64,000 nucleotides of DNA, taken from the NCBI RefSeq assembly GCF_002854065.1, contig NZ_CP024147.1; one strand, given 5' to 3'. Position 1 is the first letter of the stretch; every line of letters begins with the position of its first letter. Position numbers: made by a program. Below are positions 50,234 to 53,200 of this stretch, one piece after another. This stretch comes from Escherichia coli (GTDB lineage: Bacteria > Pseudomonadota > Gammaproteobacteria > Enterobacterales > Enterobacteriaceae).

Positions 50234-53200
50234 TTAAACAAAAAAACGAAGCAAGCATACGCCTGATGGCGGTCCAAAAAAAAGAGTCATCTTGCCTAAG
50301 AGTATTGGCAGGATGGTGAGATTGAGCGACAATCGACTTACACCGTCGCTTAAAGTGACGGCATAATAATAAAAAAATGAAATTCCTCTTTGACGGGCCA
50401 ATAGCGATATTGGCCATTTTTTTAGCGCAACATTTGCGGCAAATTCCCTTCTCCATACAGGTGTAGTGCACCGACCGCGACCACATATCGCCCCGGCGGC
50501 ATGGCGCGTAATTTATCCCGCCAGGCGAGATTTCGCTGATGCATAAGCACATCGTACAGCGACTGACTGAACGTATTGGGCAGCGTTATTTCATTATTTT
50601 GCGGCGGCGCATTCAGCCACCAGCTCATCATTTGTTGCAGCAACCGTGCGTTGGTATGCCAGTGGGTCAGCGTATCGTCCAGCAGCGCCAGTCCTTTGTC
50701 AGGGAGCTGGAGCAACATGGCAATCTGGTTTTCAGCCCCTTCCAGTTCAATCACGGGTTTATGTTGTTGCTTCGCCGCCTGCAATAGCTGGTAATCGATA
50801 CCGTATTCTGCCCGCAGCCCCAGTTTTTGTGCCTGCGTCGCCTGAAGAACCATCGCGATTTGCCACAGCGGTTGGGTAGAAAAGAGTGACGGAGAAATGC
50901 CCATCTCCTGGCTAATGTGCTGCAGATTTTGTAATTGCTCCTCGCTAATACGCTCTTCCAGCGCCTCGCAGGCAGGCAAATTAGCAAAAGGCGTATCGCT
51001 GGTGGAAACATCCGCCTCGACGATCAGCGCATCGGCGTTTTTGAGCTTTTTGAGCAAACGGGTGGGCAGGGGAGCCATATCGTGGCTACCCATATGAATA
51101 CTGCCAATCAGATGAAAATGGCGATTGCCGGGAAGGGTGATATCGATGGCAGGCCAGGTGTAATGATTACCGCGCAGCGCGGCCCAAAGCGTTTTTACCC
51201 GGTACAACAGATCCATACGACCTCCCTTTGTGAAATATCATGCTAGCGCGCGGGGAGGGATGGCGCAAATGGAGTTGGGGACTTGTTTAATGTGTTTGTA
51301 TGATTCAGTATGTTCTTGTATCGCTATTCACAGGGAAGCAACAGTTAAAAACTATGAAACAGGCAACAAGAAAACCGACGACACCCGGAGATATTCTTCT
51401 CTATGAATATCTGGAACCGCTCGATTTGAAAATCAATGAGTTAGCAGAGTTGCTGCATGTTCATCGTAATAGCGTCAGTACACTGATCAATAATAATCGT
51501 AAACTCACCACTGAAATGGCATTCCGTCTGGCGAAAGTTTTTGATACCACAGTCGATTTTTGGCTAAACCTCCAGGCGGCAGTTGATCTTTGGGAAGTTG
51601 AAAACAACATGCGCACCCAGGAAGAATTGGGACGGATTGAAACAGTGGCTGAATATTTGGCACGCCGTGAAGAGCGTGCAAAAAAGGTCGCGTAAGGCCA
51701 AAACATCGCTTCATCTCGTAGGCCGGATAAGGCGTTCACGCCGCATCCGGCATCCGAGTACCATTGCCTGATGCGACGCTTACGCGTCTTATCAGGCCTA
51801 CAAACCTGTGCCTGAACCGTAGGCCGGAGAAGGCGTTTACGCCGCATCCGGCAGTCATGCGTCGATGCCAAATGCGCCACCCTAAAGCAGCGCATCCGCA
51901 ATGATGTACTTATTCCTTCGGTTTAAACCGCAGCAACCGGTTGGCGTTACTCACTACGGTAATCGACGAGAGCGCCATTGCCGCTCCGGCAACTACCGGG
52001 TTAAGCAACGTTCCAGTGAACGGCCACAAAATACCGGCGGCGACCGGAATACCGATGCTGTTGTAGATAAACGCGCCGAGCAGGTTCTGCTTCATGTTGC
52101 GCAGCGTTGCGCGGGAAATAGCGAGCGCATCCGCAACGCCCATCAGGCTATGGCGCATCAGGGTAATCGCCGCGGTTTCAATGGCAACATCACTGCCGCC
52201 CCCCATCGCAATGCCGACATCCGCCTGGGCCAGCGCTGGCGCGTCGTTAATGCCGTCGCCCACCATTGCCACCTGACGTCCTTCACTTTGCAGACGTTTG
52301 ATCGCTTCGGCTTTACCGTCCGGCAGCACTCCGGCGATCACCTCATCAATCCCTGCTTCTTTGGCGATCGCATTGGCGGTGGTTGGGTTATCCCCGGTCA
52401 ACATCACCAGACGATATCCCGCTTTATGCAGGTGTTGCAGCGCCGCCACGCTATCACTACGCAATGGATCGCGTACTGCCAGCAGGGCTACCGCTTTCCC
52501 GTCAACCGCCAGCAGCACAGGCGTTGCCCCTTGCGATGCCTGAGCTGAAATATCTGCTTCAATCGCTTTAGTATCAACTTGCTGGTCATTTAACAGCGCC
52601 TGATTGCCCAGCAATAACGCATGACCTTCAGCTTCACCGCTCACGCCCAGCCCGCGCAATGTGCGGAAACCGTTGACCTGCGGCAGCTGCATATCGCTTG
52701 CTTTATCGAGGATCGCCCGCGCCAGCGGATGGCTGGAACCTTGTTCCAGTGCCGCCGCCAGACGCAGCGCCTGCGCTTCGTCAAAATCAGCAAATGTTTT
52801 CACTGCGACAACCTGCGGCTTCCCTTCGGTCAGCGTCCCGGTTTTATCGAACACGACGGTATCGAGTGTACTGGCGCGTTGCAGCGCGTCGGCGTCCCGC
52901 ACCAGCACGCCAAACTCAGCCGCCCGCCCGACGCCGGAAATAATCGACATCGGCGTCGCCAGCCCCAGCGCACACGGACAGGCAATAATCAGCACCGTGG
53001 TGGCAATCACCAGGGTATAGACAATCTGCGGTGCCGGACCAAAGAAATACCAGATTGCCGCACTGACAAGCGCAATAACCACTACTACCGGCACAAATAC
53101 GGCTGAGATTTTATCCGCCAGCTGACCGATTTCTGGCTTGCTGCTCTGGGCCTGGCGCACCATACGAATAATCCTTGATAGCGTGGTATGGCTGCCAACC

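What the first reader, a model, noticed from the sequence alone, without database searches (positions are those of the whole stretch)
50340..50423. ChiX sRNA between ybaK and ybaP, with its terminator abutting the ybaP stop codon
The ChiX sequence is present and apparently complete. Its intrinsic terminator ends at about 50423 while the convergent ybaP reading frame ends at 50422, so the sRNA terminator and the ybaP 3' end are packed against each other.
Basis: partly seen in the sequence, partly recalled or inferred. Interest (0 to 1): 0.25.

Follow-up and report, generated by a model that had tools for sequence, protein, structure and literature searches.

The report
ChiX small RNA overlapping ybaP stop
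This is the well-known E. coli regulatory small RNA ChiX, intact and in its usual place, and the tight packing of its terminator against the end of the neighbouring gene ybaP is already annotated and already mapped by experiment, so the finding is correct but ordinary.

Summary
The observation and the interpretation are both confirmed. Window 50340-50423 (+) is a full-length match to Rfam sroB/ChiX (82.1 bits against a gathering score of 44). It is 84/84 identical to chiX (b4585) of E. coli K-12 MG1655. It lies between ybaK (49739-50218, -) and ybaP (50422-51216, -).

The terminator hairpin is at 50396-50415 and the U7 tract at 50417-50423. The tract shares its last two bases with the ybaP TAA stop codon (50422-50424), so the two genes overlap by 2 nt rather than merely abut. 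The K-12 record annotates the same layout. Published Term-seq places the dominant ChiX 3' end on exactly that base (507287 = window 50423).

The seed is intact. ChiX nt 45-56 form 12 contiguous pairs with the chiP ribosome-binding region, and nt 37-59 pair with the chbBC decoy.

One thing is new here, though minor. In 102 of 115 species loci from about 25 genera the same 2-nt overlap is kept, although the YbaP tail varies from 4 to 8 residues. Constraint from both genes on the shared bases best explains this. A shared terminator is less likely, because the minus strand has no U-tract after the hairpin.

Novelty: already known. Interest: low.

The parts
50305..50333 (+). chiX promoter-like site: -35 TTGGCA (50305-50310), 17-nt spacer, -10 GACAAT (50328-50333), 6 nt before the annotated 5' end at 50340
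   Evidence: It is the only sigma-70-like hit in 49700-51300. TTGGCAG and TTTGAGCGACAAT are nearly invariant in 21 aligned genera of Enterobacteriaceae. Promoter activity is inferred, not tested here.
50340..50423 (+). ChiX (SroB/MicM/RybC) small RNA, 84 nt
   Evidence: Rfam RF00368 at 82.1 bits, full length. It is 84/84 identical to K-12 chiX b4585. It is present once in 5422 of 5426 complete E. coli genomes.
50343..50361 (+). 5' stem-loop of ChiX (nt 4-22, CCGUCGCU-UAA-AGUGACGG)
   Evidence: Predicted by the MFE fold. In 99 distinct ChiX sequences from other species the 5' part gives 77 different predicted hairpin sequences, median -10.2 kcal/mol. In Enterobacteriaceae the differences are largely compensatory, e.g. 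CCGAAGG/CCTTCGG and CCGGGG/CCCCGG. Two sequences, from Hafnia and Rouxiella, do not fold convincingly.
50362..50382 (+). A-rich single-stranded linker (CAUAAUAAUAAAAAAAUGAAA) with repeated A-R-N triplets, the kind of motif bound by the distal face of Hfq
   Evidence: Read directly from the sequence. The ATAATAATAA core is conserved across genera. Hfq binding is taken from the literature (SroB enriched 57-fold by Hfq co-IP in Salmonella, PMC2515195), not tested here.
50384..50395 (+). Seed (ChiX nt 45-56, UCCUCUUUGACG). The wider pairing region is nt 37-59, window 50376-50398.
   Evidence: It makes 12 contiguous Watson-Crick pairs with K-12 chiP leader nt 80-91 (CGUCAAAGAGGA), 8 nt upstream of the AUG. 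The duplex energy is -21.0 kcal/mol and 1 of 1000 shuffles does as well. Nt 37-59 pair with the chbB-chbC intergenic region at -28.5 kcal/mol, 1 of 1000 shuffles.
50396..50423 (+). Intrinsic terminator of ChiX: 8-bp stem with GCGA loop (50396-50415), A (50416), U7 (50417-50423)
   Evidence: Terminator scan and fold. The dominant Term-seq 3' end in K-12 is at 507287 = window 50423 (PMC7815308 Supplementary file 1).
50422..50424 (-). ybaP stop codon TAA. Its last two bases are the complement of the last two U of ChiX.
   Evidence: Sequence and ORF list. The K-12 annotation shows the same 2-nt overlap.
50422..51216 (-). ybaP, a TraB/GumN family protein of 264 aa, convergent with chiX
   Evidence: ORF list; Pfam PF01963, E = 7.7e-44; annotation in E. 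coli genomes.
49739..50218 (-). ybaK, Cys-tRNA(Pro) deacylase of 159 aa, divergent from chiX with a 121-bp intergenic region
   Evidence: ORF list; Pfam PF04073; annotation.
50424..50604 (+). Region antisense to ybaP where the small fraction of transcripts that read through the ChiX terminator is stopped by Rho, according to published K-12 data
   Evidence: PMC7815308 Supplementary file 2 lists a Rho termination region at 507468 (+), antisense to ybaP, which is window 50604. Reads upstream/downstream are 1492/22 untreated and 2100/115 with bicyclomycin, Rho score 3.7, p = 4e-10. The + strand here is only mildly C-rich (C 51, G 45).

Best explanation
The feature is the chromosomal chiX gene of E. 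coli. It encodes an abundant, Hfq-dependent small RNA of 84 nt.

How ChiX works (established knowledge for this family). It is transcribed from its own promoter. It ends at an intrinsic terminator whose U-tail, together with the A-rich linker, binds Hfq. Its single-stranded seed pairs with the ribosome-binding region of chiP mRNA and silences the chitoporin. Silencing is relieved when the chbBC intergenic RNA, or ChiZ, pairs with the same seed and titrates ChiX.

Why the terminator is packed against ybaP. The last two U of the terminator tail are also the last two A of the ybaP TAA codon. This is a real, annotated 2-nt convergent overlap. It is most likely a passive but 'sticky' arrangement. 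The shared bases are constrained from both sides, by the need for a long U-tail on ChiX and by the need for a stop codon on ybaP. The TTA at the end of the U-tract therefore acts as a fixed stop codon for ybaP, while the few YbaP residues in front of it drift in sequence and number.

What follows for transcription. ChiX termination is efficient and one-directional. The little read-through that runs antisense into ybaP is removed by Rho.
For: Shown here:
- Identity and completeness: the Rfam hit, 84/84 identity to K-12 chiX, and the same flanking genes.
- Promoter-like site and canonical terminator on the + strand only.
- Predicted 5' hairpin and terminator hairpin, z = -3.9.
- Seed complementarity to chiP and to chbBC, each matched by only 1 of 1000 shuffles.

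From papers:
- The 3' end is mapped at exactly the last U, and is classed 'primary chiX, antisense ybaP' (PMC7815308).
- A Rho-dependent region lies 181 nt further on. Read-through there is about 1.5% without bicyclomycin and 5.5% with it.
- SroB is strongly enriched with Hfq in Salmonella, and its cDNAs run from the start site to the terminator (PMC2515195).
- ChiX-chiP-ChiZ-chbBC regulation is described in PMC7815308.

For the passive, sticky overlap:
- 102 of 115 species loci with ybaP downstream keep the TAA / U-tract overlap of exactly 2 nt. The YbaP tail after GEGNLP is 4, 5, 6, 7 or 8 residues in 69, 9, 14, 5 and 5 loci, with 37 distinct tails.
- The overlap has been lost several times by simple routes. 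One is a nonsense mutation three codons upstream (L024 compared with L087). Another is loss of the A after the U-tract, with the frame then running on to a new TAA inside the hairpin (Kosakonia, Phytobacter). A third is an insertion of 45-139 nt (Superficieibacter sp., Rahnella inusitata).
Against: Nothing argues against the identification.

The passive reading of the overlap has weaknesses:
Seed invariance in that sample is therefore circular, and the taxon sample is incomplete.
- The species are related, so 102 loci are far fewer than 102 independent events.
- No data were found on where ybaP transcripts end. No minus-strand 3' end near ybaP appears in the Term-seq tables. A role of the hairpin for ybaP mRNA is therefore not excluded.

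Promoter activity, Hfq binding and target regulation were not tested for this strain. They are inferred from identity with K-12.
Confidence: 0.95

Rival explanations
1. The ChiX terminator hairpin is a shared, bidirectional terminator. On this reading it also ends ybaP transcription, either intrinsically or through programmed head-on collisions between RNA polymerases from the strong chiX promoter and those coming from ybaP. The conserved overlap would then be selected to place the ybaP stop right at the hairpin.
For: The pair is convergent and a stable hairpin lies exactly at the gene boundary. The boundary is conserved in about 25 genera. Head-on collisions positioned by a stem-loop have been proposed as a general way to terminate convergent gene pairs in E. 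coli (bioRxiv 10.1101/2022.10.23.513370). Another convergent pair in the ChiX regulon, chiQ and fur, is said to share a terminator (PMC10687069).
Against: On the minus strand the hairpin is followed by CGUCAAAGAGGAA, not by a U-tract, and the scan reports no minus-strand terminator there. The minus-strand hairpin begins 5 nt after the stop codon, so a terminating ribosome would cover its 5' arm (inference). No ybaP 3' end is listed in the K-12 Term-seq tables. The overlap has been lost independently in several lineages that keep both genes.
Confidence: 0.1
2. ybaP transcripts read through the hairpin and produce an RNA fully complementary to ChiX. This RNA would act as a cis-encoded antisense regulator or sponge of ChiX. 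Conversely, abundant ChiX would trigger cleavage of ybaP(-ybaK) read-through transcripts.
For: No canonical minus-strand terminator lies between the ybaP stop and ybaK. ybaK lies downstream on the same strand. One RIL-seq study had to re-label reads annotated 'ybaP.EST3UTR' as ChiX, which shows that the two annotations collide at this locus (PMC10954441).
Against: The intergenic alignment shows a conserved -10-like TATGCT on the minus strand 34 nt upstream of ybaK. This suggests that ybaK has its own promoter (inference). ChiX is among the most abundant 3' ends in the Term-seq data, with a score of about 4-5 x 10^5, whereas no ybaP 3' end passes the threshold. Any antisense RNA would therefore be far below the level of ChiX. 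The re-labelling in PMC10954441 is presented by its authors as an annotation matter, not as evidence for an antisense RNA.
Confidence: 0.05
3. The match is a chance or decayed resemblance, a pseudo-sRNA that is not expressed.
For: Most RefSeq (PGAP) annotations of E. coli genomes list no chiX feature at this place.
Against: The sequence is 84/84 identical to the experimentally characterised K-12 gene and to the sequence in 5011 of 5426 complete genomes. The promoter elements are conserved. The Rfam score is almost twice the gathering threshold. The missing PGAP feature reflects annotation practice, since the curated K-12 record carries chiX.
Confidence: 0.01

Closest known systems
ChiX (also called MicM, SroB, RybC; Rfam RF00368; E. 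coli K-12 b4585)
   Same: It is the same gene. The 84-nt sequence is identical, as are the promoter elements, the ybaK/ybaP flanks, the 2-nt overlap with the ybaP stop, and the seed complementarity to chiP and chbBC.
   Different: Within the 251 bp compared, the only difference from K-12 is C instead of G at 50337, 3 nt upstream of the 5' end. Nothing differs inside the RNA.
ChiX orthologues in other Enterobacterales (Salmonella SroB, Klebsiella, Citrobacter, Enterobacter, Serratia, Rahnella; Proteus MicM)
   Same: They share the seed GAAAUUCCUCUUUGAC, an A-rich linker, a terminator hairpin GGCC(A/G)AUA...UAU(U/C)GGCC with a run of 6-9 U in the loci that keep the overlap, and in most of them the ybaK-chiX-ybaP order (synteny noted before in PMC4355480).
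   Different: The 5' hairpin differs in sequence in almost every genus. In Enterobacteriaceae the changes are largely compensatory. Proteus has no ybaP downstream. In Kosakonia and Phytobacter the ybaP frame runs 5 codons into the terminator hairpin.
Bidirectional terminators of convergent gene pairs in E. coli (SEnd-seq work; RNAP collision model, bioRxiv 10.1101/2022.10.23.513370)
   Same: A convergent pair with a single stable stem-loop at the boundary and no spacer.
   Different: Such terminators usually have an A-tract before and a U-tract after the stem, so that both strands read hairpin plus U-tract (my own knowledge of that literature). Here only the + strand has a U-tract. A function in the ybaP direction is untested.

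Membership tests
ChiX / SroB (Rfam RF00368) | Match to the family covariance model above the curated gathering score, over the full length | tested here: met
   82.1 bits against a gathering score of 44, model positions 1-83 of 83, window 50340-50423 (+).
ChiX / SroB (Rfam RF00368) | Sequence identity with the experimentally characterised E. coli K-12 chiX gene | tested here: met
   84/84 identical to NC_000913.3 507204-507287.
ChiX / SroB (Rfam RF00368) | Genomic context: between ybaK and ybaP, divergent from ybaK and convergent with ybaP | tested here: met
   ORFs at 49739-50218 (-) and 50422-51216 (-) with Pfam tRNA_edit and TraB_PrgY_gumN. The order is the same in K-12 and, where the locus reaches far enough upstream, in the species loci outside Proteus.
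ChiX / SroB (Rfam RF00368) | Seed complementary to the chiP (ybfM) ribosome-binding region | tested here: met
   ChiX nt 45-56 form 12 contiguous pairs with the K-12 chiP leader 8 nt upstream of the AUG. The energy is -21.0 kcal/mol and 1 of 1000 shuffles does as well. The K-12 chiP sequence was used, because chiP is outside the window.
ChiX / SroB (Rfam RF00368) | Complementarity to the chbB-chbC intergenic decoy that titrates ChiX | tested here: met
   ChiX nt 37-59 pair with the K-12 chbBC intergenic region at -28.5 kcal/mol, with 12 contiguous pairs plus 7 more; 1 of 1000 shuffles does as well.
Hfq-dependent base-pairing sRNA (class II type) | Intrinsic terminator with a long 3' U-tail (proximal-face binding) and A-R-N repeats (distal-face binding) | tested here: met
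   An 8-bp GC-rich stem followed by U7. The linker AAUAAUAAAAAAAUGAAA is visible in the sequence. Actual Hfq binding is taken from the literature for the Salmonella orthologue and was not tested.
ChiX / SroB (Rfam RF00368) | An expressed ~84-nt transcript with its 3' end at the terminator | not testable with these tools
   No expression data exist for this strain. For the identical K-12 sequence, Term-seq gives a dominant 3' end at 507287 = window 50423 in several growth conditions (PMC7815308).
Bidirectional intrinsic terminator shared by a convergent gene pair | A hairpin followed by a U-tract on both strands (A-tract upstream and U-tract downstream of the stem) | tested here: not met
   The scan finds the terminator on the + strand only. 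On the minus strand the stem is followed by CGUCAAAGAGGAA.
Bidirectional intrinsic terminator shared by a convergent gene pair | Mapped 3' ends of both convergent transcripts at the same stem-loop | tested here: inconclusive
   The K-12 Term-seq tables list the ChiX 3' end but no minus-strand 3' end for ybaP. This may only reflect low ybaP expression.

The most novel reading that the evidence does not exclude
The exact 2-nt overlap of the ChiX U-tail with the ybaP stop codon is kept in about 25 genera while the YbaP tail changes length. On the most novel reading this is not just inertia but is selected. The ChiX terminator stem-loop, together with heavy convergent transcription from the chiX promoter, would define the 3' end of ybaP transcripts and shield ybaK from read-through. 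An sRNA gene would then double as the terminator module of its convergent protein-coding neighbour.
Probability: 0.1. Interest if true: 0.35.

Novelty: already known. Interest (0 to 1): 0.1.

Why it matters
It matters little beyond housekeeping. The result shows that this strain carries an intact ChiX, so chitoporin silencing should work as in K-12.

There are two practical points. First, most automated RefSeq annotations of E. coli omit chiX, so the locus looks like an empty gap next to ybaP. Second, because the two genes overlap, strand-naive or UTR-extending annotation pipelines can mis-assign ChiX reads to a 'ybaP 3' UTR', as one RIL-seq study had to correct.

The conserved overlap is a tidy example of two genes on opposite strands constraining the same two base pairs. 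It could serve as a natural test case for work on convergent-gene termination, but no evidence found here shows that it has a function.

Tried and rejected
- Other RNA families. I searched 50100-50700 on both strands with permissive Rfam thresholds. Only sroB was found.
- A minus-strand terminator for ybaP at or after the ChiX hairpin. None was found. A minus-strand terminator-like hit at 50265-50252 has a weak 5-bp stem whose arms are not conserved. It coincides with the conserved block GGCGTATGCT, which looks more like a ybaK -10 element, so I rejected it as a terminator.
- Whole-RNA duplex prediction of ChiX against the chiP leader. It gave an implausibly long, interrupted duplex with poor statistics. 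I replaced it with exact-complement search and a duplex restricted to the unstructured middle of ChiX.
- Coding potential. The ATG at 50378 inside ChiX opens a frame that has no Shine-Dalgarno sequence and runs past the RNA's 3' end. A 116-aa minus-strand ORF (50202-50552) crosses the antisense of chiX in a frame different from ybaP. Both are taken as mechanical ORFs, and neither is annotated in K-12.
- A rut-like C-rich signal downstream of ChiX. C exceeds G only slightly (51 against 45), so the sequence alone gives no support. The Rho effect rests on the published data.
- Literature on the overlap. I found no paper describing the overlap itself or its conservation. Only the ybaK-micM-ybaP synteny is mentioned.
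Full report
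**1. What is at the coordinates**

The window sequence at 50340-50423 (+) reads ACACCGTCGCTTAAAGTGACGGCATAATAATAAAAAAATGAAATTCCTCTTTGACGGGCCAATAGCGATATTGGCCATTTTTTT.

- A scan of the whole 64-kb window against Rfam finds RF00368 (sroB, the Rfam name of ChiX/MicM/RybC) at exactly these coordinates. The match is full length (model 1-83 of 83), at 82.1 bits against a gathering score of 44, with E = 1.8e-10.
- A more permissive scan of 50100-50700 on both strands finds nothing else.
- The stretch is identical at 84 of 84 positions to the curated chiX gene (b4585, 507204-507287) of E. coli K-12 MG1655. In the 251 bp compared, the only difference is C for G at 50337, three bases upstream of the RNA's 5' end.
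- The window offset to K-12 coordinates is 456,864.
- The same 84 nt occur once per genome in 5422 of 5426 complete E. coli genomes, and are identical in 5011 of them.

**2. The neighbours and the overlap**

- The ORF list gives 49739-50218 (-), 159 aa, and 50422-51216 (-), 264 aa. Pfam assigns them to the aminoacyl-tRNA editing domain (YbaK) and to the TraB/PrgY/GumN family (YbaP). They are annotated as ybaK and ybaP in K-12 and in other genomes.
- The consensus scan finds one + strand intrinsic terminator: stem-loop 50396-50415 (8 pairs, loop GCGA), then A, then T7 at 50417-50423.
- Bases 50422-50424 are TTA, the complement of the ybaP TAA stop. Bases 50422 and 50423 thus serve both as the last two U of ChiX and as the last two A of the stop codon.
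- The K-12 record shows the same layout (chiX to 507287, ybaP from 507286).
'Abutting' is in fact a 2-nt overlap.

**3. Anatomy of the RNA**

- A sigma-70-like site, TTGGCA-17 nt-GACAAT (50305-50333), ends 6 nt before the 5' end. It is the only such hit in 1.6 kb. Its two hexamers sit in blocks (TTGGCAG and TTTGAGCGACAAT) that are nearly invariant in 21 aligned genera of Enterobacteriaceae.
- The RNA folds into a 5' hairpin (nt 4-22) and the terminator hairpin (nt 57-76). The MFE is -24.1 kcal/mol, z = -3.9 against shuffles.
- Between the hairpins lie an A-rich stretch of A-R-N triplets (nt 23-43) and the seed.
- In 99 distinct ChiX sequences from other species, the 5' part gives 77 different predicted hairpin sequences, with a median of -10.2 kcal/mol. 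In Enterobacteriaceae the changes are largely compensatory. Two sequences, from Hafnia and Rouxiella, do not fold convincingly.
- The terminator hairpin has only 20 variants, including compensatory A-U to G-C changes in Rahnella and Proteus.

**4.

- ChiX nt 45-56 (window 50384-50395, UCCUCUUUGACG) form 12 contiguous Watson-Crick pairs with K-12 chiP leader nt 80-91 (CGUCAAAGAGGA). That site covers the Shine-Dalgarno region 8 nt before the AUG. The energy is -21.0 kcal/mol, and 1 of 1000 shuffled ChiX middles does as well.
- ChiX nt 37-59 pair with the chbB-chbC intergenic region at -28.5 kcal/mol, again matched by 1 of 1000 shuffles.
- These are the published target and decoy of ChiX. PMC7815308 summarises the chiP, chbBC and ChiZ interactions.
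- chiP and chb lie outside the window, so I used the K-12 sequences.

**5.

- I could not generate expression data, but data exist for the identical K-12 sequence. Term-seq (Adams et al. 2021, PMC7815308, Supplementary file 1) lists a dominant 3' end at 507287 (+), scores about 4.5-5.5 x 10^5, classed 'primary: chiX; antisense: ybaP'. The printed flanking sequence puts it on the last T of the T7 run, which is window 50423.
- Supplementary file 2 of the same paper lists a Rho termination region at 507468 (+), antisense to ybaP (window 50604). Upstream/downstream reads are 1492/22 untreated and 2100/115 with bicyclomycin, Rho score 3.7.
- The intrinsic terminator is therefore efficient, and Rho removes the small leak that runs antisense into ybaP.
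- In Salmonella, SroB cDNAs cover the RNA from the start site to the terminator and are enriched 57-fold by Hfq co-IP (PMC2515195).

**6. Is the packing conserved, and does it mean anything?**

- In 115 of them a ybaP homologue lies downstream on the opposite strand. The five Proteus loci lack it, in agreement with PMC4355480.
- In 102 of the 115, the stop is TAA and overlaps the last two T of the U-tract by exactly 2 nt. These loci come from about 25 named genera of Enterobacteriaceae and Yersiniaceae.
- This holds although the YbaP tail after the conserved GEGNLP motif is 4, 5, 6, 7 or 8 residues long (69, 9, 14, 5 and 5 loci; 37 distinct tails).
- The TTA at the end of the U-tract thus behaves as a fixed stop codon, while the codons in front of it change.

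The 13 exceptions show how the state is lost:
- A nonsense TAG three codons upstream (Pluralibacter sp. L024 compared with L087).
- Replacement of the A after the U-tract, with the frame then reading five more codons (QKNGQ) to a TAA inside the terminator hairpin (Kosakonia, Phytobacter and two unnamed relatives).
- A frame that runs antisense across the whole of ChiX (Phytobacter massiliensis; a single genome, so a sequencing error is possible).
- Spacers of 4-139 nt (Hafnia, Rouxiella, Superficieibacter sp., Rahnella inusitata).

I read this as inheritance of an old overlap that is hard to undo. Both genes constrain the shared bases, and only in-frame changes in the ybaP tail are tolerated.

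Caveats:
- The search pattern fixes the seed, so seed invariance in this sample is circular.
- The species are related.
- Yersinia, Erwinia and others were not sampled.

**7. The functional alternative**

A shared or collision-based terminator for ybaP is conceivable (general model in bioRxiv 10.1101/2022.10.23.513370). Several things argue against it:
- On the minus strand the hairpin is followed by CGUCAAAGAGGAA, not by U's.
- The scan finds no minus-strand terminator there.
- The hairpin starts only 5 nt after the stop codon.
- No ybaP 3' end appears in the Term-seq tables.

I give this alternative about 10%. An antisense or sponge role of ybaP read-through is less likely still. ybaK appears to have its own conserved -10-like element, and ChiX is vastly more abundant than any ybaP transcript.

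**8. Comparison with what is known, and verdict**

This is ChiX itself, not a relative of it. Every defining feature that could be tested is met, and the one that could not (expression in this strain) is met for the identical K-12 sequence. The 2-nt overlap with ybaP is in the curated K-12 annotation and in the published Term-seq classification. The ybaK-micM-ybaP synteny has been noted before.

The only addition from this work is the count showing that the exact overlap is kept across genera while the YbaP tail varies in length. I did not find that described in the searchable literature. It is a minor evolutionary observation.

Novelty: already known. Interest: 0.1.

Noticed in passing
window 49700-49741: The other end of ybaK is packed just as tightly. 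The ushA stop is at 49700-49702. A hairpin GTGCCGGATG-TTCG-CATCCGGCAC lies at 49710-49733. The ybaK stop codon (TTA on the + strand) is at 49739-49741. K-12 Term-seq lists a ushA 3' end at 506602 (= window 49738), the base before the ybaK stop, classed 'primary ushA, antisense ybaK'. No U-tract follows this hairpin.
   Followed up: partly
window 50252-50265 (-): A minus-strand terminator-like hit upstream of ybaK coincides with the block GGCGTATGCT, which is conserved across Enterobacteriaceae. It looks more like a -10 element (TATGCT) for a ybaK promoter set back-to-back with the chiX promoter.
   Followed up: partly
L078, L105, L029, L061 (Kosakonia, Phytobacter and relatives), at the ChiX terminator: In these species the base after the U-tract is G. 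The ybaP frame reads on for five codons (QKNGQ) to a TAA that lies inside the ChiX terminator hairpin, whose upper stem and loop have changed (AATAATCTTATT and similar). The antisense of an sRNA terminator thus encodes the C-terminus of a protein.
   Followed up: partly
L027 (Phytobacter massiliensis JC163): A 1-nt difference puts the ybaP frame into a register that stays open antisense across the whole of ChiX, adding about 30 codons. It is seen in one genome only, so it may be real or a sequencing error.
   Followed up: no
RefSeq E. coli genomes at the chiX locus (e.g. L002, NZ_CP182139.1): The PGAP-annotated genomes examined list only ybaK and ybaP here and carry no chiX feature, although the sequence is identical. 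The curated K-12 record does carry it. One RIL-seq paper had to treat 'ybaP.EST3UTR' as ChiX (PMC10954441).
   Followed up: partly
window 51721-51798, both strands: Rfam naRNA4 (a REP-element-derived family) matches on both strands between ybaQ and copA, at 86.2 and 62.4 bits. K-12 Term-seq lists an 'orphan' 3' end just after it at 508673 (+) = window 51809.
   Followed up: no
window 803-898 (-), 18550-18646 (+), 36055-36119 (+): Other known RNA elements in the window are sraA, 4.5S/SRP RNA, and the dnaX frameshift element. All are full-length Rfam matches above gathering score.
   Followed up: no
window 50202-50552 (-): A 116-aa mechanical ORF runs in a frame other than ybaP's across the end of ybaP, the antisense of all of chiX and its promoter, and into the start of ybaK. 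It is not annotated in K-12.
   Followed up: no
E. coli genome collection: Two of the 5422 ChiX matches are on records labelled as plasmids, and 4 of 5426 genomes have no match.
   Followed up: no
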